From the IMG/VR virus record IMGVR_UViG_2718217716_000005: 37,433 nucleotides of DNA, one strand, 5' to 3'. Shown here piece after piece: positions 1,150-29,827 of the stretch (positions are counted from its first letter, which is position 1; each line of letters begins with the position of its first letter). This DNA is from a virus. Its lineage: Duplodnaviria; Heunggongvirae; Uroviricota; Caudoviricetes. The notes beneath the pieces are model-generated. The model searched no databases. It worked only from the letters and a program-made list of their open reading frames with translations, and was not told where the DNA came from. A program made the translations under genes and the position numbers.

Positions 1150-1443
1150 ATGGACAATCATGTAACGACGAGAAATCGAAAAATGATTGAAAACGCGGAG
1201 ATCTATAATGATTATTTTTCCGATTATTCAGATGTCTGCAAATACAGTTCGAGTGCGGGAGAGTTCATATGCTTCAACTTTTTTATTAAATCTTATGTTT
1301 TTCCTCCACAGAAAGAAGATGGAGGTGTGCCACCTCCTGAAATCACTTTGCACCGTATAGCCTCCGTCTCAATGATGGAGCAACAGGCTAATGAGCTGTA
1401 TAGCATTCTGGGAATGATTCTACAAAAGCGTGAATCGGACTAA
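1150..1443 (+). CDS. Hypothetical protein (97 aa), low-GC, divergent from com-mom
   Basis: ATG at 1150 preceded by TAAGAGG at 5-nt spacing. Lower GC than the phage backbone. No recognisable motif. Confidence 0.45.
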   Translation: MDNHVTTRNRKMIENAEIYNDYFSDYSDVCKYSSSAGEFICFNFFIKSYVFPPQKEDGGVPPPEITLHRIASVSMMEQQANELYSILGMILQKRESD

Positions 1444-2247: not shown

Positions 2248-4317
2248 TTACGCGTTATTCACTTCCACCACAATGCTGTCAATCAGCACCGGGTATGTTG
2301 CACCGTTAGTGATATCGGTCACGCGTAACTTGTCTGCCGTAAACGTGCCAACCGGAGACTGCGACAGCATGAATGGTGTCCCGTCCTTACCATCAATGAC
2401 CGGCGTCACCTCAATACTGTTGTTACCGGCAAAACGGAAGCCCAGCGTATGCCACTCATTATCAAATGCGCTGAATGCCCCCAGCTTCGTGTTCTGCGCC
2501 GTGTTTCCCTTGTGATACATCACGTTAAGGTCTGTGGCATCGCTCTGTACGTAGAACGACGCCAGCAGGTTATGACCGGCATTACCTTCCAGAGTAACCC
2601 CTTGTGGCAGGGCAGAAACCGGCCAGTACAGCGCCAGTGCGTACTGATTAGCCGTAAGCGCGCCATCGAGTTTAAAACGACAACTGACAAGACCACCTTT
2701 ACCCAGCAGGTCCGCACCATTACCGGCATCATGCTCAAGATACCAGGAGGATTTGCCTGTTTCCTTGGTCAGTTTCATGGCCTTACCACTACCAGCTCCG
2801 GCATCATCCACGATTTGAGCCTTACCGCCTCCGGCAGTCCAGCCCTGTGGTGCCAGCTGTCCTTCAGACTCTGATGCCCGGTAAGCAAACAGGGTGCTCA
2901 TCGTCGTGGTGTCAGCCGGTGGTGTGGACGGTGTATCCGGCGATGGTGTTGATGGCGTGTCAGGTGATGGTTTTTCATCCGGCTGTGTCACAACCGGTCC
3001 CTGCATCACTTCAGGTGTGCGTCCCGCATGGAGCAGAATGGCTGAGGCCAGACGGTCTGAAATAATGCCCCTGCGTGCCCATGAGCTGAAATGGCTGTCA
3101 CGCTGTGTCGAGACAAAACTGCCCTGGGTACGGGATGCCGCACCGTAATACCCGACAGTCACAATATCCGGGTCTTCCGCCTGAGCATTCGTTGGCGTGT
3201 TCTGTCCATTCTCATCCGTCAGGAAAGGTACAAAGAAAATATTCTGAGTTTCCTTGCCTTTGTAGCCACCGTATACCGCCTCATATTTATCGGTGCCAGC
3301 GTTTTTCCAGTAATACGTGGTATCACCACAAATCCACGGTACCGTGCCAGCATTTCCACTCACGCACTGCGCAGCAAGCGGAGACAGGTCAGTTCTGAAC
3401 TGCTGAACCATGGTCGTGAATAAACCATTATGCTGCTGACTTCCCGATGCAAGGTCTGCTTCTCCCTGCATCCAGACCACAGCCAGAAGTTTGTTTTTCG
3501 GGTTCTTCGCCAGCGCCGCTCTGGTACGGCTTACCAGGTCCTGATACAGAGGTTTACCGACTCCCCAGCGTGAAGAATCAGCGGAAGCACCGCTGGTCTC
3601 ACTGAATGAACCGTCCGCCCCGGTGGTAAATGCTGACCCACCACGGCAACAGGGCACCAGAAGAATCCCGGCATTCTGCGGGATATAAGGCAGCAGTTTT
3701 TTGGCAATATGCAGCCCCTGACCGACAGTCCCGTACTGGCCTTTTGCCAGATCAGCTTTCGGGTGGTTTATCCCGCTCATATCCTGCACATCATGCAGGC
3801 AGTGATCTGCCGGAATGATGTCGTTATATGTACACGACGTACCGTCGGGCGTGACCGTGCTGCGGCGTGCCAGTTGCTTAATCCGTGGGTCCGGGCGGTC
3901 AAATGAATCCGGTAACGGAAGCCCTTCACCATAGGCCATGCCATTTGATTGTCCCGCCAGTGGGATCACATAGTAATACTCCGGCTCTGTGGTACTGCCA
4001 TTCGTGCTGCCGGAAGGCCCGGCGTTATCCGGTGCATTCCAGTCGGAGGGCGTGAGTGTTCCGGCCACGTCAGCTGTAATCGGAATGATGCCGGTCACGC
4101 CTGAACTGGTGATTTCTGCACTGGGATTACCGGATACCGGCATTATCCATAATGGCTCTTTCGTGCTGAAGCGGATCACGCAGTCTGCGAAGGTGATCCC
4201 CCCTTTATTACCCGAAGGCCTGAAAGGACTTTCAATAAATGCCACCGTGCCACCGGCAACCTTGACTGAAAACTCTCCGGGCATGGCGGAGAGCATTTTC
4301 CACTGGGAGTCTGACAT
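2248..4317 (-). CDS. Multidomain protein: N-terminal region, SGNH/SASA-type O-acetylesterase-like domain, Pro/Thr linker, C-terminal lectin-like beta domain (689 aa)
   Basis: Motifs YVIPLAGQSNGMAYGEG (GQSN nucleophile motif), VVWMQGEAD, DSHF (Asp/His of triad); linker PSPDTPSTPSPDTPSTPP; C-terminal ~220 aa Gly/Asn/Thr-rich. Sits where Mu carries the G segment and gin. Confidence 0.7.
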   Translation of the reverse strand: MSDSQWKMLSAMPGEFSVKVAGGTVAFIESPFRPSGNKGGITFADCVIRFSTKEPLWIMPVSGNPSAEITSSGVTGIIPITADVAGTLTPSDWNAPDNAGPSGSTNGSTTEPEYYYVIPLAGQSNGMAYGEGLPLPDSFDRPDPRIKQLARRSTVTPDGTSCTYNDIIPADHCLHDVQDMSGINHPKADLAKGQYGTVGQGLHIAKKLLPYIPQNAGILLVPCCRGGSAFTTGADGSFSETSGASADSSRWGVGKPLYQDLVSRTRAALAKNPKNKLLAVVWMQGEADLASGSQQHNGLFTTMVQQFRTDLSPLAAQCVSGNAGTVPWICGDTTYYWKNAGTDKYEAVYGGYKGKETQNIFFVPFLTDENGQNTPTNAQAEDPDIVTVGYYGAASRTQGSFVSTQRDSHFSSWARRGIISDRLASAILLHAGRTPEVMQGPVVTQPDEKPSPDTPSTPSPDTPSTPPADTTTMSTLFAYRASESEGQLAPQGWTAGGGKAQIVDDAGAGSGKAMKLTKETGKSSWYLEHDAGNGADLLGKGGLVSCRFKLDGALTANQYALALYWPVSALPQGVTLEGNAGHNLLASFYVQSDATDLNVMYHKGNTAQNTKLGAFSAFDNEWHTLGFRFAGNNSIEVTPVIDGKDGTPFMLSQSPVGTFTADKLRVTDITNGATYPVLIDSIVVEVNNA

Positions 4318-14231: not shown

Positions 14232-15713
14232 TCACAAAATGAAACGGATCTGCGCGGCCATGAAGCGGAACTGGTTAACCAGATCCGGTGTACACATCAC
14301 ATCCAGACGGTTACGGTCTTTTGTGTTGCGCTCCACGAGCAGATTCTTTTTAAAGGTGTCCAGATTTTCGACCAGTCCCAGATCCACCCATTCTTCCCCC
14401 AGCGCAATCAGCTGGAGCGTCATGATCTCCGGCGTCACGATATTCTGACCGGGCCGGACGGGAGTACCGTTATCGGCCAGTTTGTGGCGCGGGAAACGCT
14501 GCGTGATAAAGGTGCGCAGGGAATAACGCAGATATGACAGGGTGTAGATGGTTTCCACATCCAGATAGCTGGGATCGCTTTCGCCGTATGCATTCTGACG
14601 GTACATCGTCACCTGACGTTCAATCTGCACCACATCAGCGGCCGCGACGGTCACCGTGGACATGCCGGTATAAAGCAGGCTGTTTCGCTCTTCCCGTGTC
14701 AGGCGATCTGATTCTGCCGGTGCCAGTCGAGCAGGCAACGCCAGCGTCTGGAGTGGGCGGGCAGGATCGGCAGACAGTGACGGTGCACAGACTGCACAAA
14801 TAGAAGCTGCCCAGACATAATCCGGCTCTGGTGCCTTCGGAATGGAGGTACAGGTAAACAGGAAATCATTACGGGACTCACCAAAACTGGTTGCCGTGCC
14901 GAAGGTGCCGGTATGCGCCATCCAGACCATACCGTCTGACATTTTTACCGGTCCCCAGCGTTTCAGCAGTTCTTCCGCCAGAATTTTGAGATTCGCCGCA
15001 TCCTTATAGGGCATCACAATATAGTTATACTGGCGCGTCCCCATGGCAGCGATGCTGTTGGTAATATCCGGGTTTTTCGGCGCGGTGCCTCCGGCAGTGG
15101 AAACAACAATCCCGGCGGGTGTCACTTCACCGGAATAATAATTCAGCCGGATATCATGCACGGAGCATTCGCCGGTAAATTTTGCCGTCAGGGTGATCAC
15201 TTTTTTTGTCTGATCCTGATTATCCGGGGGGACGCTGGTCGTGGCGCTGACCGGACAGTCCTGGTCTGCGTTAATCATCGCGGCAAGCGCATCCGCCAGA
15301 AGATTACCCGGTTTGCCTTTGCTGACGGCCAGACGGTAAGGACGTCCGGCGATATAGAGATTCAGCACATTGTCTTCCGTTGCTGTACCGGAAAGCGTGA
15401 TGGTGCCGGATGTGGCCGTGCCGGTGCCTTCCCCCTGTGCAATGCCGTACAGCTCCGTATCAGGGTTAATGGCAATAAACGCTGCCACCATCTGCGCAAT
15501 CATGGAGCCACGCCCCCAGAGTTCTGTCGCCTGAGACGCGCGGGTGATACGGACAGGAGAATCAACAACACCAAACGCATTACGGTTTCGCTGACCAAAC
15601 AATAGCACCGCCTGACGCTGCGGCGGCGTGCCGGTCACGGCCATTGAGTTATTGATTTCAATCTGTACCAGCGGGATGCGATTGTTATCGCCGATAAAAT
15701 CAAAGTTAATCAT
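14232..15713 (-). CDS. Contractile tail sheath protein (Mu L-like)
   Basis: 493-aa ORF, size and position as Mu L. Confidence 0.8.
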   Translation of the reverse strand: MINFDFIGDNNRIPLVQIEINNSMAVTGTPPQRQAVLLFGQRNRNAFGVVDSPVRITRASQATELWGRGSMIAQMVAAFIAINPDTELYGIAQGEGTGTATSGTITLSGTATEDNVLNLYIAGRPYRLAVSKGKPGNLLADALAAMINADQDCPVSATTSVPPDNQDQTKKVITLTAKFTGECSVHDIRLNYYSGEVTPAGIVVSTAGGTAPKNPDITNSIAAMGTRQYNYIVMPYKDAANLKILAEELLKRWGPVKMSDGMVWMAHTGTFGTATSFGESRNDFLFTCTSIPKAPEPDYVWAASICAVCAPSLSADPARPLQTLALPARLAPAESDRLTREERNSLLYTGMSTVTVAAADVVQIERQVTMYRQNAYGESDPSYLDVETIYTLSYLRYSLRTFITQRFPRHKLADNGTPVRPGQNIVTPEIMTLQLIALGEEWVDLGLVENLDTFKKNLLVERNTKDRNRLDVMCTPDLVNQFRFMAAQIRFIL

Positions 15714-15988
15714 CAGGACGTCCCCTTATCTGATGCTGCGGGTTTTTCAGCCGCCGCAGGTTTTTCTGCTGCCGCTCCCGCTGGTTTTGCAGCCTCGCCG
15801 GTATTACCTGTTGTGGCTGCCGGGGCAGGCTCCGCCGTTTTATCCACCACAATGACGTCGCCATCATTAAGACGGCGGCACCAGAACGGAGTGAAGGGTT
15901 TCTCTTCCCCGTCCTGTGAGAGCGGATTCATCGTGTCGGGATCGCGGATCAGGCATCCCGGCGCAGGTTTAATAAAAATGGTTTTCAC
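15713..15988 (-). CDS. Small tail-region protein (Mu gp38-like) with Ala/Lys/Pro-rich C-terminus
   Basis: 91-aa ORF whose stop overlaps the sheath start. Confidence 0.55.
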   Translation of the reverse strand: MKTIFIKPAPGCLIRDPDTMNPLSQDGEEKPFTPFWCRRLNDGDVIVVDKTAEPAPAATTGNTGEAAKPAGAAAEKPAAAEKPAASDKGTS

Positions 15989-16063
15989 TTGCTCTCCTTG
16001 TACTTGTGATGAGCTTCCTGACCGGGCATTCTGATAGTTTCTTCACCAACATAAGGAGTCTTT

Positions 16064-16330
16064 ATGTCATCAGAAAATCAACCATCACCAGAGATTCAGT
16101 TCGCTCATGACCTTGTAAATGGGTTAGCTATTGCGGTGAATATTCTGATCCAGAAACTGGAACAGGACGGAACACTGTCCATGAATGAATTTCTGGACAA
16201 ACTTCGTCAGCAACACACTGGTTTACTCGCACAGAACCAGAAAACTATCGCTCATGGCGTCAACCTGCTTTTGGGATCGCTTGAGTATGTGACGACCACG
16301 AAGAGCGACCAGACAAATCAAGCTCACTAA
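16064..16330 (+). CDS. Hypothetical helical protein (88 aa), opposite-strand insertion inside the tail cluster
   Basis: ATG at 16064 preceded by TAAGGAG at 5-nt spacing. Lower GC than flanking genes. Followed by its own stem-loop. Confidence 0.55.
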   Translation: MSSENQPSPEIQFAHDLVNGLAIAVNILIQKLEQDGTLSMNEFLDKLRQQHTGLLAQNQKTIAHGVNLLLGSLEYVTTTKSDQTNQAH

Positions 16331-16393
16331 TTAACTGAAGGCATTCGGCACGGGACTTTACCAGCCAGGATGCCACCCATGAGTTGTGATTCC

Positions 16394-16423
16394 CGGCAGA
16401 AGTCATCGCCATGGCTTCTGCCG
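16394..16423 (+). terminator. Hairpin cggcagaag ... cttctgccg followed by T-rich sequence, downstream of the plus-strand insertion
   Basis: 9-bp stem with 12-nt loop, then tattatcc. Confidence 0.45.
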
Positions 16424-16447
16424 TATTATCCTGATGTTTATCCATCG

Positions 16448-17005
16448 TCAGACCTCTTCGTTGGGATTCATGTTTTCACCTGTACCCTTAAGATGAATAT
16501 GTGCCTCAAACGGCGACGTACCGGGCGGCTCCACAAAGGTTTCGTAATGGCGCAGGAAATCATCCAGCGAGCTGATATCCGTCAGCGGGTCGATCATTTC
16601 CTCGCATGAGAAATACAGGGCGTACATCACGGCACCGCTGTCTGCCTGCGTTTCGGTGTAACCGTTAAGCGCCTTTTCAAAGTAAAGCGGTGAGGTTTTT
16701 TCTGTCCTGAAACCGTCCAGCACGGTAATCAGGCGGGCCACAATCTGATAAAGTCCGGGACGGCTGACCTCACGGCCATTGAGCATGTCGCCGATGACGT
16801 AGAACACCCAGTGGCTGACCAGACGTCCACGGGTACGCCCTTCACCGGCACCCAGCCAGGCAACGTAGATCGCCGGGGCGCTAATCAGCATGGTGCGCAG
16901 CACACTGTCGCTCCAGTCGCCGGGATGCGTGTCAACTGACACCAGTTCATTCCCGAAATACTCACGGATACGGGCGATGTACGCCTGTTCGGTTTCCGTA
17001 ATCAT
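16448..17005 (-). CDS. Tail completion/neck protein (Mu K position)
   Basis: 185-aa ORF in conserved order. Confidence 0.55.
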   Translation of the reverse strand: MITETEQAYIARIREYFGNELVSVDTHPGDWSDSVLRTMLISAPAIYVAWLGAGEGRTRGRLVSHWVFYVIGDMLNGREVSRPGLYQIVARLITVLDGFRTEKTSPLYFEKALNGYTETQADSGAVMYALYFSCEEMIDPLTDISSLDDFLRHYETFVEPPGTSPFEAHIHLKGTGENMNPNEEV

Positions 17006-17421
17006 ATAAAGCCCTTCTGGTTGCGCCCGAACACCGCCGCATCAGACTGTACCTGCGGTAAGTCCCCGGATTCAGGGGCCGCACCGTCGGTATCCACGCC
17101 GACCGGCACGTTGCCGTTCATGACGTCTTTCAGCCAGGCCAGCGCCTCACGATAACGGTCACGCGCCTGTTCAGCTCCCCGTTGATCGCACAGGTAATAA
17201 AAGGCAATCGCGCAGCAGTGCTGAACAAGGACCGCCGGAACCACCGCCAGCGGCAGCGTGTAACGGGCAGACAGGTAGCTGTCGATAAGGGCAGACGCGT
17301 CCGTCAGCGCCCGGTTCAGTTTGCGCGTGTCCGGTTCATCCGAACGGGGCACGGCCAGTAATGACCTGAGCAAATCCTCGCGGTAACGCGCCCGCATATC
17401 GGTTTCGGTGGCGTAATTCAT
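17002..17421 (-). CDS. Head-tail joining protein (Mu J position)
   Basis: 139-aa ORF overlapping both neighbours. Confidence 0.55.
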   Translation of the reverse strand: MNYATETDMRARYREDLLRSLLAVPRSDEPDTRKLNRALTDASALIDSYLSARYTLPLAVVPAVLVQHCCAIAFYYLCDQRGAEQARDRYREALAWLKDVMNGNVPVGVDTDGAAPESGDLPQVQSDAAVFGRNQKGFI

Positions 17422-17831
17422 GCGCGCGCCTTTTTTTTCTGTCTGGCTTTATTGCCGGTCTTTTTCCGGGGAGCATCCTGTCCGGCTTCGGCTTCGGCTT
17501 CGGCTTCGGCTTCGGCTTCGGCTTCGGCTTCGGCTTCGGCTTCGGCTTCGGCTAAATCTGCACCGGTCGCTGCATGAACCACACCCGCCACGGCTCCCGC
17601 ATCATCACCAGGCGTCTGTAGTATTCGTACAGTGAGGCATGGCTCCGCTTCCAGTCGGGCAAGCTGTTCCGGGGTGACGTCAACCTGCTGGCGTCCCCGC
17701 ATGAACAGGAACCCCGCACGACGAAACTGCGCACGATTGCAACGCACTTCTGCCAGTACCGTGACAGGATTGTCACCACTGACCTGAAGGCCTGAGTCAT
17801 CTGTTGCTGCCACAGTGTGATGTTCATTCAT
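17418..17831 (-). CDS. Hypothetical head-region protein with internal (Glu-Ala)n repeat and basic C-terminal tail
   Basis: 137-aa ORF between the major head gene and the J-like gene. Contains AEAEAEAEAEAEAEAEAEAEAEA and ends KKTGNKARQKKKARA. Confidence 0.55.
   Translation of the reverse strand: MNEHHTVAATDDSGLQVSGDNPVTVLAEVRCNRAQFRRAGFLFMRGRQQVDVTPEQLARLEAEPCLTVRILQTPGDDAGAVAGVVHAATGADLAEAEAEAEAEAEAEAEAEAEAEAGQDAPRKKTGNKARQKKKARA
17484..17552. repeat. Perfect hexanucleotide tandem repeat (GGCTTC)x11.5, in-frame, coding (Glu-Ala)n on the minus strand
   Basis: Seen directly as ggcttc repeated without interruption for 69 nt. Confidence 0.95.
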
Positions 17832-20123: not shown

Positions 20124-20597
20124 TTACGGCGTTTCTGTAGCCTTTTTAAAGCGTTTTCTGATTTCGTCCATGATCTCCTGTTCTGCCACCTGATCAAAGC
20201 CCATATACGGACGCGCACCAATGGCTGCTGGTCCCGGTGGCATACCGGGCAGGCCACCCCACTGATGAATGGCCGCATAAGGCTCATTTGATCCAATCAG
20301 CGCCCAGGTATCGCCATAATCCGTGGTCAGGCGGCGGGCCAGATCGCCGTTCAGCGTCAGGATTTTGCCGGGCGTGTATCCCTTACGGGTACGCCACTTG
20401 CGGTAAGGATCTGACCAGTCATGCCAGCGTTCACCATCCGGCTCTTTTTCCTGTTCAAACGCCATTTCTGACGATGACAGAAGACTCTCCGCCACACTGC
20501 GGGCCAGGTCTTTTCCGCCGCCCACAAACTGAAGCCGGGCAAACACCCGCTGGAGACGCGTAACGTCAACAACGACAGCGGCATCAATGGATGACAT
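20124..20597 (-). CDS. Virion morphogenesis protein (Mu G-like)
   Basis: 157-aa ORF, size and position as Mu G. Confidence 0.65.
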   Translation of the reverse strand: MSSIDAAVVVDVTRLQRVFARLQFVGGGKDLARSVAESLLSSSEMAFEQEKEPDGERWHDWSDPYRKWRTRKGYTPGKILTLNGDLARRLTTDYGDTWALIGSNEPYAAIHQWGGLPGMPPGPAAIGARPYMGFDQVAEQEIMDEIRKRFKKATETP

Positions 20598-20718
20598 ATT
20601 GCCTCCGCATAAAGGATGAATATAAAATAAACAGGCGGTCAGTGTACGCTTAACTGGTAAAGTCGGTGCCTGCCTCCGGGTGGATCATGTATGCGGGTTC
20701 GACCCCCGCCACTGACCG

Positions 20719-22050
20719 TTAATCAATTTGTCCTTCCAGCACCTCAAGCATTCCGCCCCGGATATCCGATTTCAGCTTATCCATATTGATAACCCGGTAA
20801 GCATTCACAATCACATCCAGTTTGTCGGGCTGACGTTTCAGACTGTACGGTGCATTAACGGCAATCTGCACACTGCCATCCTTATTTTCCACGATATACA
20901 TCAGATTGTTGTGCCGTTTGTCCCACAGCACCGCTTTTGGCTTTGCCAGCATTGCCGGTAAGCGCCCGAAGTCCTCTGGCATCAGGGCGATGCCGTCATT
21001 CTGATGTTTCACACTGTCTGCATGGAGCACATTTTTACCGCTCATCGCCAGCAGGCGGGCCGGTGGCGTTCCCGTCCGGCTTTCCACTGCCTGCGCAATG
21101 CTTTCAGTCATAAAGCCCAGCGTGCGGATATCGTTACCACCTCGCCGGGTCTGCATGATGTTTTTTGCCCAGATGCGGAACGCCAGCTGCCGCTCCGGGC
21201 TGTTGTTCATCTCCTGAACCACCATTTCCCGTAACGCCGGGCTTTTCACCTCGATCAGTTTGCGGATCAGCGCCTGGTCTGTGCCGAACGCTGCCGAGCC
21301 GGGGTTATATGACCAGCCCACATCCGGTGTCATGGTTCTGGTGCCATCTGAATATGTGGTCACCGGCATTTCTCTGACTTCTCCGGTCTGTTTATCCACG
21401 CCAGCCTCAACATTGCGGGTGGAGAGATGATCCTCACCGGATGAAACGGATAACCCCATTGCATCCAGACGGGCCTGAGACAATGGTCGCACACGGCAGC
21501 GGCAGTTCCAGCCATTGGGCGGGTAGTGTGTTTTCCAGAACGGATCATCATAGCGGAATACCAGCCCGTTAAGGGCGGAATGCGCCGGGCGGGTGCGGCT
21601 GTCCATGACCGCCACATACTGCCAGAACGGATGCGTGTCCGTGTTGTTCATCATCTGCGTGTAACGCCCGGCATTGTAAGCCACACGGGTGTTCACGTTG
21701 TAAATCAGCGCCAGACGACGGGGACTGCCCAGTTGCACTTCTTCCGCGTTACCGTCGCTGTCCACCACAATCTGCTTTCCCCACCATCCCAGCTTTTGCA
21801 GTCGGGGTGTCAGCGTGCGGATAAATGCTTTCTGTGAAATGCCCTCATCAACAGCACGCAGCACTTCCGCCTGTAGTGTGGTCAGTACGTCCAGCCGTGC
21901 CACTTTTGCTGCCGTGAATGAGCGGGCGTGCACATCCGCGTCTGTTTCGAACCAGTTCCAGCTGATATGCGCTCCTTTGGCGCGGAAGTATGCCACCGCC
22001 TCTTTTGAGGGAAGCGTGGCGGCATAACCTAAATCAATCCCCTGAGCCAT
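20719..22050 (-). CDS. Head morphogenesis / minor head protein (Mu F-like)
   Basis: 443-aa ORF downstream of the portal gene with overlapping start. Confidence 0.75.
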   Translation of the reverse strand: MAQGIDLGYAATLPSKEAVAYFRAKGAHISWNWFETDADVHARSFTAAKVARLDVLTTLQAEVLRAVDEGISQKAFIRTLTPRLQKLGWWGKQIVVDSDGNAEEVQLGSPRRLALIYNVNTRVAYNAGRYTQMMNNTDTHPFWQYVAVMDSRTRPAHSALNGLVFRYDDPFWKTHYPPNGWNCRCRVRPLSQARLDAMGLSVSSGEDHLSTRNVEAGVDKQTGEVREMPVTTYSDGTRTMTPDVGWSYNPGSAAFGTDQALIRKLIEVKSPALREMVVQEMNNSPERQLAFRIWAKNIMQTRRGGNDIRTLGFMTESIAQAVESRTGTPPARLLAMSGKNVLHADSVKHQNDGIALMPEDFGRLPAMLAKPKAVLWDKRHNNLMYIVENKDGSVQIAVNAPYSLKRQPDKLDVIVNAYRVINMDKLKSDIRGGMLEVLEGQID

Positions 22051-28180: not shown

Positions 28181-28603
28181 TCAGAAAAGCCGGGGCTGCG
28201 TGCGTTCCTGATGCAGGCGGCGCTGGGTGCGGATAACGGAGTAAATCTGCGTCTCTGACATCTGGTAGTGGCGGCGCAGGGTTTCAATTTTTTCGCCCTG
28301 GCTCCAGCGGGAAAAAATTTCATTATTGCGCAGTTCGGTGAAAAGGGATTCACCGACCGGGAGATAATAACCACGCCCGCCCATGTACCCGGCCTGTGCG
28401 GCCGCAACTTTACGGGCAAGCATTCCCGCCTGAGCAGATTCAATCCCCTGACGGTGCAGTTCAGCACTGATCACATCAACCAGGTCCCGCAGCGTGCCGG
28501 GCCAGTTCTTTTTCAGCTCATCATCAGGAATGTCATCCAGACGGTCAATCAGCGCGTGCAGCTGTTCGCTGTCACCAAACATGCTCATCTGTGTTTCAGC
28601 CAT
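28181..28603 (-). CDS. Mor/C-family transcriptional activator (140 aa), the only member in the window
   Basis: Size and position directly upstream of lys. C-terminal helix-turn-helix-like IETLRRHYQMSETQIYSVIRTQRR, GGAGG ribosome-binding site. Confidence 0.7.
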   Translation of the reverse strand: MAETQMSMFGDSEQLHALIDRLDDIPDDELKKNWPGTLRDLVDVISAELHRQGIESAQAGMLARKVAAAQAGYMGGRGYYLPVGESLFTELRNNEIFSRWSQGEKIETLRRHYQMSETQIYSVIRTQRRLHQERTQPRLF

Positions 28604-28645
28604 ACCCGCCTCCGGTCATCATTACACAGGGCAAGTTTAAAATAA

Positions 28646-28669
28646 AAATCCCGCGCTGTGGCGGGATTT
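28646..28669. terminator. Hairpin aaatcccgc-gctgtg-gcgggattt (bidirectional terminator-like), left copy of a ~35-bp direct repeat
   Basis: 9-bp perfect stem flanked by A-run and T-run. Near-identical copy at 29291-29314. Confidence 0.6.
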
Positions 28670-28942
28670 AGGAATGTAACGAATAAACGAGCTTAACAAT
28701 ACCTGGACAAATATTGATCAGTTAATCGTGTAAGTGTATGATAAATATCATTTATTTATTCTTCTGAATATACCGATTGTTTTTTTACCACTGATGAGAT
28801 CATCACTGGTATATGCGAGCTGGTTGTCTTTAATTATCAAACATGCTTTGCCGTAAAAAAGCATGGAAAAAGACATAAAAACTAACGCTCTGAAGATAAC
28901 AAACCGTTCCTTTAACGTTTTTTTATACAGGACTATGTTCAT

Positions 28943-29284
28943 ATGACTTTTGGCCCCATCATTGAGTTTGAATCAGGCTATACCGATGACATGTACCAGT
29001 CCCTGCAGGATAATGGTATCAGATACACCCCTATTGCAGCTTTATCATACAATGTAACCGAAATGGTTGAGTTGCTCCATGCGGTTAACACGCCAGAAAC
29101 ATGGGCCGCTATTGTTCTCATCGTAAAAAAATGGATAAACCGACACAAGGATGCCAGTGTTGAATTAACCATGAATGAGAACGGGCAACTGACATCCGTA
29201 AAAATAAACGGCTACAACGTAAATGATCTGGATAAGCTTGGAGTACCCAGTTTGATTCGAGCTTCTTTTAAATCAGAGGAGTAA
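28943..29284 (+). CDS. Hypothetical protein (113 aa), opposite-strand low-GC insertion between GemA and the Mor/C activator
   Basis: ATG at 28943 after a very AT-rich 270-bp leader, followed immediately by a terminator hairpin. No recognisable motif. Confidence 0.6.
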   Translation: MTFGPIIEFESGYTDDMYQSLQDNGIRYTPIAALSYNVTEMVELLHAVNTPETWAAIVLIVKKWINRHKDASVELTMNENGQLTSVKINGYNVNDLDKLGVPSLIRASFKSEE

Positions 29285-29290
29285 AATAAG

Positions 29291-29314
29291 AAATCCCGCA
29301 CTGTGGCGGGATTT
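29291..29314. terminator. Hairpin aaatcccgc-actgtg-gcgggattt, right copy of the direct repeat
   Basis: Sits between the stop of the plus-strand gene (29284) and the stop of gemA (29318). Confidence 0.6.
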
Positions 29315-29317
29315 GGG

Positions 29318-29827
29318 TTAACAGGGGAATGATTTTTCATACAGCCTGCAAACGCGCTCATAACTCATCACTGCACGCTCCGACATATCCAGGGCTGCCA
29401 GCATTTTGCGGCGGTGCCAGCGTTTGAGACGCTCCAGCACATCAGAGGCCAGCTCGGGGTGTTGCTCCAGCCACTGCCAGTTAGCCACACCTTCGCCGCC
29501 GTTCTGCGCGGCCGTCTGCGATTTCACCCAGCGGTTAAGGGCCGTTTCCGCACCATCAGAAATAAAGCCCTGCCGGTGCATCACTTTCCAGATGGCGCGA
29601 ATTTTGGCGGTCACCGTACCCGGCTTTAAGGCCCGGTTAACCGGTTTCTGACGCACTTTAAAACCGCGTTTTTTGAAAACATCCAGTACGCGGGATAACT
29701 CATCCGGTGACATATCCCGGCAACTGGCTTTACCGGTGGCTGCCAGCAGTGCGGATGTATAGGTTTCATCATCCAGAGCAAGCTCGCGTTTTGCCACATG
29801 AATGGCAGATATCAGTTTTCCTCTCAT
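29318..29827 (-). CDS. gemA: GemA-like early regulatory protein
   Basis: 169-aa ORF with N-terminal pattern LISAIHVAKRELALDDETY...GKASCRDMSPDEL...FKKRGF typical of the Mu GemA family; last gene of the early block. Confidence 0.6.
   Translation of the reverse strand: MRGKLISAIHVAKRELALDDETYTSALLAATGKASCRDMSPDELSRVLDVFKKRGFKVRQKPVNRALKPGTVTAKIRAIWKVMHRQGFISDGAETALNRWVKSQTAAQNGGEGVANWQWLEQHPELASDVLERLKRWHRRKMLAALDMSERAVMSYERVCRLYEKSFPC

What the first reader, a model, noticed from the sequence alone, without database searches (positions are those of the whole stretch)
15989..16447. Opposite-strand cargo gene embedded in the tail gene cluster
An 88-aa helical protein is encoded on the plus strand in the gap between two minus-strand tail genes (15713-15988 and 16448-17005). 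It has a near-consensus ribosome-binding site, lower GC than its neighbours and its own terminator hairpin (16394-16423). Structural operons of Mu-like phages are normally uninterrupted, so this is an acquired insertion. In Pseudomonas Mu-like phages comparable late-region insertions (there between G and I) carry anti-CRISPR genes, but function here is unknown.
Basis: partly seen in the sequence, partly recalled or inferred. Interest (0 to 1): 0.6.

Follow-up and report, generated by a model that had tools for sequence, protein, structure and literature searches.

The report
Orphan moron gene between Mu-like tail genes
A rare, recently acquired add-on gene ("moron") sits backwards between two tail genes of an E. 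coli Mu-like prophage and encodes a real but orphan 88-residue three-helix protein of unknown role; this is an ordinary kind of phage feature with an uncharacterised cargo.

Summary
The window is a Mu-like prophage of E. coli M1/M3, with its late genes on the minus strand. A 459-bp stretch (15989-16447, GC 0.46 against about 0.55-0.61 in neighbouring genes) lies between the Mu K/Gp37 tail-terminator gene and the gp38/DUF2635 gene. In Mu, SfMu and 226 of 229 related complete E. coli genomes these two genes overlap or lie 0-3 bp apart.

The stretch carries a plus-strand 88-codon ORF with an AAGGAG ribosome-binding site and a downstream hairpin. The ORF is a real gene. Its only distant homologue (44% identity, also 88 aa) sits at the same junction and orientation in a Salmonella Mu-like prophage. 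Differences between the two fall 39/26/57 over codon positions 1/2/3.

The hairpin is kept in position but not in sequence, and it is stronger in the plus-strand RNA. The overlapping 61-codon minus-strand ORF shows no coding signal. It starts with the leftover start of a small membrane-peptide gene that the cassette replaced.

The protein has no family, defence or anti-defence match. Its predicted fold is a generic acidic three-helix bundle.

Verdict: a textbook moron with orphan cargo. Its function is inferred, not shown: probably a lysogen-expressed factor that works by binding another protein. Nothing tested supports an anti-CRISPR reading.

The parts
15989..16447 (.). Inserted low-GC cassette (moron) between gp38/DUF2635 and K/Gp37. 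The stretch that differs from insert-free relatives runs on to about 16496, so it also covers the last ~16 codons of Gp37.
   Evidence: Alignments with insert-free relatives M18, AST198 and O26. GC 0.464. Present in 3 of 5426 complete E. coli genomes. In the Salmonella locus L007 the equivalent 462 nt replace 118 nt of the L039-type backbone.
16064..16330 (+). Protein-coding gene, 88 aa. The product is acidic (pI 5.3, net charge about -4) and soluble (GRAVY -0.35), with three predicted helices (9-35, 40-56, 60-86).
   Evidence: ORF. One 44%-identical 88-aa homologue at the same junction in L007. Differences by codon position 39/26/57; 21 of 39 conserved residues use different codons; no indel. 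AlphaFold2 pLDDT 79, pTM 0.60.
16053..16058 (+). Shine-Dalgarno sequence AAGGAG, 5 nt upstream of the ATG.
   Evidence: Read from the sequence. AAGGAGT is identical in L007.
16004..16032 (+). Candidate weak promoter: -35 TTGTGA (16004-16009), 17-nt spacer, -10 CATTCT (16027-16032). The -10 lies inside the conserved block GGGCATTCTG.
   Evidence: It is the only -35/-10 candidate found at the same place in both lineages (7 of 12 matches). None of the E. coli polymorphisms hits the hexamers. The consensus scan did not call it. Inferred, not shown.
16394..16443 (+). Probable plus-strand-specific intrinsic terminator: a 13-bp stem (16394-16406 / 16411-16423), loop CGCC, and a U-rich tail that ends just before the K stop codon at 16448.
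   Evidence: -22.2 kcal/mol, z = -4.35 on the plus RNA. The minus RNA is weaker (-19.8, A.C mismatch) and has no U tail. L007 has a hairpin at the same alignment columns with a different sequence, three pairs changed on both sides, and a U-rich tail.
16361..16383 (.). Conserved non-coding block CCAGCCAGGATGCCACCCATGAG in the 3' untranslated region. Role unexplained.
   Evidence: 19 of 23 positions are identical between the window and L007. Its best 21-nt window (17 of 21) is the most conserved in the stretch compared, from the ORF start to the hairpin. This is despite saturated synonymous sites in the ORF. No Rfam match. The pattern found only 6 unrelated hits among 185,579 species genomes.
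16260..16445 (-). 61-codon ORF that starts ATGGATAAA 2 nt after the K stop and overlaps the 3' end of the plus-strand gene by 71 nt. Most likely a remnant start fused to antisense cassette sequence, not a conserved protein.
   Evidence: ORF. Some gene callers call it. L007 has a 55-codon counterpart. Differences by its own codon positions are 21/16/17, so there is no coding periodicity. BLASTP finds only a 13-residue match. The same ATGRRTAAA start opens a 31-36 aa hydrophobic-peptide gene in relatives L033-L042.
15988..15999 (-). New translation start for gp38/DUF2635: AAGGAG (minus strand, 15999-15994), a 5-nt spacer, then the GTG start (15988-15986). The insert supplies this in place of the stop/start coupling to K seen in relatives.
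   Evidence: Sequence. RefSeq annotates the same start. Relatives use an ATG 0-3 nt after the K stop.
15713..15988 (-). Flanking late gene: DUF2635, the Mu gp38 homologue (annotated as putative sheath terminator in Mu).
   Evidence: Pfam PF10948, E = 4e-19. Mu annotation.
16448..17005 (-). Flanking late gene: Phage_Mu_Gp37 / DUF1834, the Mu K homologue (tail terminator).
   Evidence: Pfam PF08873, E = 3e-15. tblastn to Mu gp37, annotated tail terminator.

Best explanation
This is a moron: a self-contained accessory transcription unit of about 0.46 kb that recombination placed between the Mu K (tail terminator) and gp38 genes of an enterobacterial Mu-like prophage.

Shown:
- The cassette is an insertion relative to nearly all relatives.
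- It has an atypical base composition.
- Its single plus-strand ORF is a real protein-coding gene under purifying selection.
- It carries a strong ribosome-binding site for that gene and a new one for gp38.
- A stable hairpin that favours the plus-strand RNA sits between the ORF and the K stop codon, and its position is conserved in a second lineage.

Inferred:
- The gene is transcribed from its own weak promoter (TTGTGA-17-CATTCT), convergent with the late operon. It would therefore be expressed mainly while the late operon is silent, that is, in the lysogen or early in infection.
- The hairpin stops this transcript before it runs antisense into K. Late transcription passes through it in the other direction, because that strand has no U tract.
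- The product is a soluble, acidic 88-residue three-helix bundle with no catalytic or membrane features, so it most likely acts by binding another protein.
- My best guess for its role is a lysogen-expressed conflict factor (exclusion of, or defence against, other phages, or modulation of the host) that benefits the prophage.

Confidence is about 0.85 that it is an acquired, independently signalled accessory gene encoding a real protein. It is about 0.35 that it is a lysogen-expressed conflict or host-modulating factor. The overall figure below blends the two.
For: - Insertion: K and gp38 are 0-3 bp apart in M18, AST198, O26 and 23 of 33 scorable IMG/VR loci, and overlap in Mu and SfMu. The insert is in 3 of 5426 complete E. 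coli genomes against 229 with the flanks.
- Composition: GC 0.46 against 0.55-0.61 in neighbouring genes.
- Real gene: a 44%-identical, equal-length homologue at the same junction in a Salmonella prophage. Differences by codon position are 39/26/57, and 21 conserved residues use different codons.
- Terminator: z = -4.35, stronger on the plus RNA. Same position, different sequence, three compensatory pairs in L007.
- Promoter candidate conserved in both lineages.
- Mobility by recombination: the insert differs by at most 2% among E. coli loci, while adjacent K sequence differs by about 7%.
- Product: three helices, pLDDT 79; pI 5.3, GRAVY -0.35.
- The features match the published definition of a moron (PMC4378225, Background section).
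Against: - No transcript data exist, and the promoter is weak (7 of 12 matches). The consensus scan called neither the promoter nor the terminator.
- The U tract after the hairpin is poor (4 U in 8).
- Only two independent lineages exist, so the structural covariation and promoter conservation rest on a single comparison.
- The function has no direct support. There is no hit in Pfam, PHROGs, PADLOC or NCBIfam, none in PDB by sequence, and only generic helical-bundle fold matches.
- Within E. coli, I count 4 synonymous and 6 non-synonymous polymorphisms, too few to show selection.
Confidence: 0.6

Rival explanations
1. It is an anti-defence protein (anti-CRISPR-like or anti-restriction). It would be expressed from its own promoter immediately after infection, as in the acr loci in the late region of Pseudomonas Mu-like phages.
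For: The protein is small (88 aa), acidic (net charge about -4) and an orphan. The gene is low in GC and sits in the late region of a Mu-like phage with its own expression signals. PMC4378225 describes low-GC accessory regions carrying anti-CRISPR genes in Pseudomonas Mu-like phages.
Against: The cassette holds one gene only, with no aca-type HTH regulator. It sits at a different junction (K|gp38) and in the opposite orientation. It resembles no known family. The candidate promoter is weak, whereas anti-defence genes usually need a strong early burst. It is very rare, in 3 of 229 related prophages in complete genomes.
Confidence: 0.15
2. It is a host-physiology modulator of the small 'connector' type (like YmgB/AriR or Hha). 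It would bind a host regulator and change gene expression in the lysogen, a form of lysogenic conversion.
Confidence: 0.1
3. The functional element is RNA or transcription rather than protein. The insert would uncouple K from gp38 translation, or make an antisense or convergent transcript that tunes late-gene expression, and the ORF would be incidental.
For: The insert replaces the K/gp38 stop-start coupling with a new Shine-Dalgarno sequence and a GTG start. The most conserved block is non-coding (16361-16383). The hairpin and the convergent orientation also fit.
Against: The ORF shows clear protein-level constraint: 39/26/57 by codon position, an equal 88-codon length, and no indel at 54% nucleotide identity. 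There is no Rfam match. The predicted plus transcript does not overlap either flanking coding sequence.
Confidence: 0.05
4. The real gene is the 61-codon minus-strand ORF (16445-16260), translationally coupled to K, and the plus-strand ORF is a shadow of it.
For: It starts 2 nt after the K stop, with GAGG 7 nt upstream. It is open in both lineages, and the length difference between them is a multiple of three. Some pipelines call it.
Against: Its differences show no codon-position periodicity (21/16/17). The two peptides share only MDK and SWVxxWL. Its start is explained as a leftover of the replaced hydrophobic-peptide gene. The plus frame carries the coding signal.
Confidence: 0.03

Closest known systems
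Morons of temperate phages, as defined by Juhala/Hendrix for HK97/HK022. Examples from my own knowledge: lambda bor and lom, and P2 Z/fun between tail genes.
   Same: A single ORF inserted between two genes that are adjacent in related phages. Atypical low GC, its own ribosome-binding site, a terminator hairpin and a candidate promoter. Patchy distribution and spread by recombination (definition in PMC4378225).
   Different: The cargo protein has no known relatives or function. Promoter activity and expression in lysogens are untested. It is anti-parallel to the late operon and sits at a junction (Mu K|gp38) that I did not find described as a hotspot.
Anti-CRISPR (acr-aca) loci in the head-gene region of Pseudomonas Mu-like phages (D3112, JBD30, DMS3 group)
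   Same: A low-GC accessory insertion with its own promoter inside the late region of a transposable phage, encoding a small acidic protein.
   Different: No aca regulator, a different junction, the opposite strand, no sequence similarity, and no functional evidence.
YmgB/AriR (PF10798; PDB 2oxl)
   Different: No detectable sequence or profile similarity. The fold is generic.
The small hydrophobic-peptide gene (31-36 aa) at the same K|gp38 junction in related Mu-like prophages (L033-L042)
   Same: It occupies the same junction. Its ATGRRTAAA start, overlapping or next to the K stop, is retained in the window and in L007.
   Different: It lies on the late strand, is translationally coupled on both sides and encodes a membrane-type peptide. 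In cassette-bearing phages its body has been replaced.

Membership tests
Moron (autonomous accessory unit in a phage operon) | Lies between two genes that are adjacent in related phages | tested here: met
   K and gp38 are 0-3 bp apart in 26 of the loci fetched, and in most of the 229 E. coli genomes. They overlap in Mu and SfMu.
Moron (autonomous accessory unit in a phage operon) | Base composition differs from the neighbours | tested here: met
   GC 0.464 (ORF 0.449) against 0.554-0.572 for the flanking genes. GC3 0.47 against 0.52-0.65.
Moron (autonomous accessory unit in a phage operon) | Own transcription terminator | tested here: inconclusive
   A stable hairpin (z = -4.35) that is stronger on the plus RNA, with its position conserved in L007 and three compensatory pairs. 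The U tract is weak and the consensus scan did not call it.
Moron (autonomous accessory unit in a phage operon) | Own promoter | tested here: inconclusive
   The scan found no consensus promoter. One weak candidate, TTGTGA-17-CATTCT, is conserved in both lineages.
Moron (autonomous accessory unit in a phage operon) | Expressed from the repressed prophage | not testable with these tools
   Needs strand-specific RNA-seq or a reporter assay.
Anti-CRISPR locus of Mu-like phages | Adjacent aca (HTH) regulator gene | tested here: not met
   The cassette holds one conserved ORF. There is no second gene and no HTH match.
Anti-CRISPR locus of Mu-like phages | Homology to a known Acr family | tested here: inconclusive
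   No hit in Pfam, PHROGs, NCBIfam or PDB. No dedicated Acr library was available.
Anti-CRISPR locus of Mu-like phages | Inhibits a CRISPR-Cas system | not testable with these tools
   Needs an experimental assay.
Known anti-phage defence systems (PADLOC-DB 2.0) | Match to a defence-protein profile | tested here: not met
   No match at E <= 10 for either ORF.
YmgB/AriR (PF10798) | Match to the family profile | tested here: not met
   Pfam shows no YmgB hit for the window protein (E <= 1) or for P0006 (E <= 10). hhalign probability is 0.3%. The control YmgB chain hits PF10798 at 2.9e-26.
YmgB/AriR (PF10798) | Same fold | tested here: inconclusive
EF-hand | Conserved 12-residue calcium-binding loop (DxDxDG...E) | tested here: not met
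   phmmer hits P0007 and P0008 are repetitive proteins whose repeats I read as EF-hand-like. In the window protein the loop positions read K-x-E-x-D-G...E, and in the homologue L-x-D-x-R-G...D. The chelating positions are therefore not conserved.

The most novel reading that the evidence does not exclude
The 88-aa protein founds a new family of single-gene phage-conflict proteins (superinfection exclusion, defence or anti-defence), carried at a previously unrecognised accessory hotspot: the Mu K|gp38 junction of enterobacterial Mu-like prophages. That junction has at least four states: empty, hydrophobic peptide, peptide plus an extra 61-aa ORF, and this moron. In this reading the conserved 23-nt block in the 3' untranslated region is a regulatory element of the cassette.
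Probability: 0.3. Interest if true: 0.55.

Novelty: new member of a known kind. Interest (0 to 1): 0.3.

Why it matters
Morons are where temperate phages keep lysogenic-conversion, exclusion and anti-defence genes. Orphan morons are therefore a useful place to look for new phage-host conflict proteins.

This one is cleanly delimited and clearly a real gene. It is found only in E. coli and one Salmonella isolate (about 90 contigs). Natural isogenic-like comparators exist, because closely related prophages lack the cassette, so it is cheap to test.

It also marks the K|gp38 junction of Mu-like prophages as a small accessory hotspot. It shows how an insertion can break a translationally coupled pair of tail genes yet keep them working, by supplying a new ribosome-binding site and a one-directional terminator.

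If the protein turns out to have no conflict role, this remains an ordinary example of phage mosaicism.

Tried and rejected
- **Homology searches.** Pfam, PHROGs, PADLOC and NCBIfam gave nothing significant. The best hits were Y_phosphatase (E = 0.096) and DUF5347 (E = 0.13), both below cut-off and absent for the Salmonella homologue.
- **Protein databases.** The word-indexed search of 5.8 billion proteins found only the protein's own cluster. Exhaustive HMMER over 1.84 billion representatives found one true homologue, plus two repetitive proteins I read as EF-hand-like and judged spurious.
- **DNA-level searches for the protein.** tblastn against phages and plasmids found nothing. Scans of GTDB species genomes and JGI metagenomes, with peptide patterns and a back-translated AHGVN..SLE pattern, also found nothing. 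The positive control worked in IMG/VR.
- **Conserved 3' block.** Its pattern in the species genomes gave 6 unrelated hits, about the number expected by chance (my estimate is roughly 4).
- **RNA.** No Rfam match in the region or anywhere in the window.
- **Inverted repeat 15994-16012 / 16040-16058.** This repeat makes the two divergent Shine-Dalgarno sequences complementary. I rejected it as a late-mRNA structure because z = +1.08.
- **Regulator sites.** The motifs GGGCATTCTG and CACCCATGAG are not enriched elsewhere in the prophage.
- **Other promoter types.** Sigma-54 and sigma-32 readings of the conserved blocks were checked by eye and did not fit.
- **Minus-strand ORF as the true gene.** Rejected on the substitution pattern.
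- **Literature.** Nothing found for the RefSeq protein accessions.

Full report
**What the window is.** The query region is 100% identical to the chromosomes of E. coli M1 and M3, both mouse isolates. The window carries a Mu-like prophage. On the minus strand it holds a 695-aa ORF at the right end that I take to be the transposase (not tested), GemA, Mor, a portal-to-tail module and Mom. The finding lies between Phage_Mu_Gp37/DUF1834 (16448-17005, minus) and DUF2635 (15713-15988, minus). These correspond to Mu K (annotated as tail terminator) and Mu gp38 (annotated as putative sheath terminator).

**Checking the observation.**
- The 88-codon plus-strand ORF at 16064-16330 is there, as are AAGGAG at 16053-16058 and the 13-bp hairpin at 16394-16423.
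- GC is 0.464 for the 459-bp gap and 0.449 for the ORF, against 0.55-0.61 in the neighbouring genes.
- The hairpin folds at -22.2 kcal/mol, with z = -4.35, and 0 of 200 shuffles fold as well.
- The simple consensus scans called neither a terminator nor a promoter here. Both signals are therefore non-canonical.

**It is an insertion.**
- In E. coli M18, AST198 and O26 RM10386 the two tail genes are 0-3 bp apart.
- In Mu and SfMu they overlap by 14 nt.
- Of 5426 complete E. coli genomes, 229 carry the flanking genes but only 3 carry the insert: M1, M3 and SCU-171.
- Among 33 IMG/VR relatives that could be scored, one has it.
- The left boundary is the gp38 start codon. The right boundary lies about 16 codons inside the 3' end of K.
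- The insert supplies a new AAGGAG and a GTG start for gp38, replacing the stop/start coupling seen in relatives.

**The plus-strand ORF is a real gene.**
- The protein is essentially an orphan. It forms one 90%-identity cluster of five variants on about 90 E. coli contigs.
- An exhaustive HMMER search of 1.84 billion representative proteins found one true homologue, P0006. It is 88 aa, 44% identical, E = 1.8e-15, from Salmonella enterica serovar Reading.
- P0006 is encoded at the same K|gp38 junction, in the same orientation, in another Mu-like prophage, locus L007.
- The two genes have the same length and no indel. They are 54% identical in nucleotides.
- They differ at 39, 26 and 57 sites in codon positions 1, 2 and 3. 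Of the 39 conserved residues, 21 use a different codon.
- This is the signature of protein-level purifying selection with saturated synonymous sites.

**Transcription signals.**
- In L007 a different hairpin (GGGGG...CCCCC followed by a U-rich tail) occupies the same alignment columns. Three pairs have changed on both sides.
- In the window the stem is perfect in the plus RNA, through a G.U pair. In the minus RNA it has an A.C mismatch and no U tail.
- This fits a one-directional terminator. It would stop the cargo transcript just before K while letting late transcription pass the other way.
- The only promoter-like pair of hexamers conserved in both lineages is TTGTGA/TTGTTA, 17 or 18 nt of spacer, then CATTCT. 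It matches 7 of 12 consensus positions and lies inside the conserved block GGGCATTCTG.
- Promoter function is inferred, not shown.

**The minus-strand ORF.**
- A 61-codon ORF (16445-16260) starts ATGGATAAA 2 nt after the K stop and overlaps the cargo gene's 3' end by 71 nt. L007 has a 55-codon counterpart.
- Outside the overlap, its differences fall 21/16/17 over its own codon positions. The two peptides share only MDK and SWVxxWL. I see no coding constraint.
- More distant relatives (L033-L042) explain its start. They encode a 31-36 aa hydrophobic peptide at this junction, on the late strand. That gene starts ATGRRTAAA on or next to the K stop and ends on the gp38 start.
- The L007 backbone is 95% identical to L039 on both flanks. 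The 462-nt cassette replaces the 118 nt that hold that peptide gene.
- The minus ORF is therefore best read as the retained start of a replaced gene, running into antisense cassette sequence.

**History of the cassette.**
- Among the E. coli loci the cassette differs by at most 2%. The adjoining part of K differs by about 7%, with the change in diversity near 16580.
- So the cassette, together with the 3' end of K, has recently moved between backbones by homologous recombination.
- It also survives in truncated prophage remnants (L051, L058, L059).
- The K|gp38 junction has at least four states: empty, hydrophobic peptide, peptide plus an extra 61-aa late-strand ORF (L033), and this cassette.

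**What the protein might do.**
- It is acidic (pI 5.3, net charge about -4) and soluble (GRAVY -0.35).
- AlphaFold2 with a three-sequence alignment predicts a three-helix bundle, pLDDT 79 and pTM 0.60.
- There are no matches in Pfam, PHROGs, PADLOC or NCBIfam, and none in PDB by sequence.
- The YmgB lead fails a profile test, with hhalign probability 0.3%.
- An EF-hand-like stretch explains two spurious HMMER hits but is not conserved in the homologue.
- Function therefore rests on context. A small soluble protein, encoded anti-parallel to the late operon with its own signals, matches the published description of morons. [quoted passage not shown]
- I commit to a lysogen-expressed, protein-binding conflict or host-modulating factor, at about 0.35 probability.
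- Rivals are an anti-defence protein (0.15), a YmgB/Hha-like connector (0.10), a purely RNA-level role (0.05) and the minus ORF being the true gene (0.03).

**Unexplained.** The 23-nt block at 16361-16383, in the 3' untranslated region, is 19 of 23 identical between the two lineages. Its best 21-nt window (17 of 21) is the most conserved in the stretch compared, from the ORF start to the hairpin. It has no Rfam match. Its pattern found only unrelated hits in the species genomes. It is not repeated in the prophage.

**Verdict.** The anti-CRISPR comparison remains an untested analogy. In kind this is a well-known phenomenon, a moron, carrying a new orphan protein. Interest is modest.

Noticed in passing
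window 28604-29317 (ORF 28943-29284, plus strand): A second opposite-strand cassette lies between mor (28181-28603) and gemA (29318-29827). It is a 714-bp stretch at GC 0.39 with a 113-aa ORF that has no Pfam match. Nearly identical hairpins AAATCCCGCRCTGTGGCGGGATTT flank it at 28645-28669 and 29293-29316. It looks like another moron bounded by duplicated terminators.
   Followed up: partly
window 20634-20718, plus strand (gap between the gpG-like gene 20124-20597 and the MuF-like gene 20719-22050): A tRNA-like element on the strand opposite to the late genes, with a GGTTCGA T-arm and a 9-bp acceptor-like stem. RefSeq annotates the equivalent sequence as 'tRNA-OTHER' in AST198 and O26. The O26 copy shows compensatory changes in the acceptor stem. 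ARAGORN and Rfam call nothing, and its fold is not unusually stable (z = -1.1).
   Followed up: partly
loci L033-L042 (IMG/VR Mu-like prophages), K|gp38 junction, e.g. L036 3030-3140: A conserved gene for a 31-36 aa hydrophobic peptide (MSKHDLSFFCFVFAFFLAATGSTGWGWFLFIGVILL or MGKLMLFIAGCLAITGNVAWPWFLLIGVILL). It is translationally coupled to both K and gp38. L033 carries an extra 61-aa late-strand ORF with a CPCC motif at the same place.
   Followed up: partly
window 1150-1443, plus strand: A 97-aa ORF on the opposite strand, GC 0.395, with no Pfam match, lying between mom (1-933) and a DUF826 gene (1611-1865).
   Followed up: no
window 17418-17831, minus strand (about 17450-17540): The HI1506-related / FluMu_N head-tail connector protein carries a run of about 13 Glu-Ala repeats. 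Its length varies widely among otherwise near-identical prophages, from 117 to 155 aa in loci L049-L060.
   Followed up: no
loci L051, L058, L059: Truncated Mu-like prophage remnants. DUF2635 is joined to a lysis module from elsewhere (lysozyme and Phage_lysis genes), and in L058 and L059 a Mu transposase HTH domain is fused to the protease gene. All three still keep the 88-aa gene intact.
   Followed up: no
window 2248-4317, minus strand: A 689-aa protein, probably a tail fibre or tail spike, with a SASA (sialate O-acetylesterase-like) domain and a DUF6645 domain.
   Followed up: no
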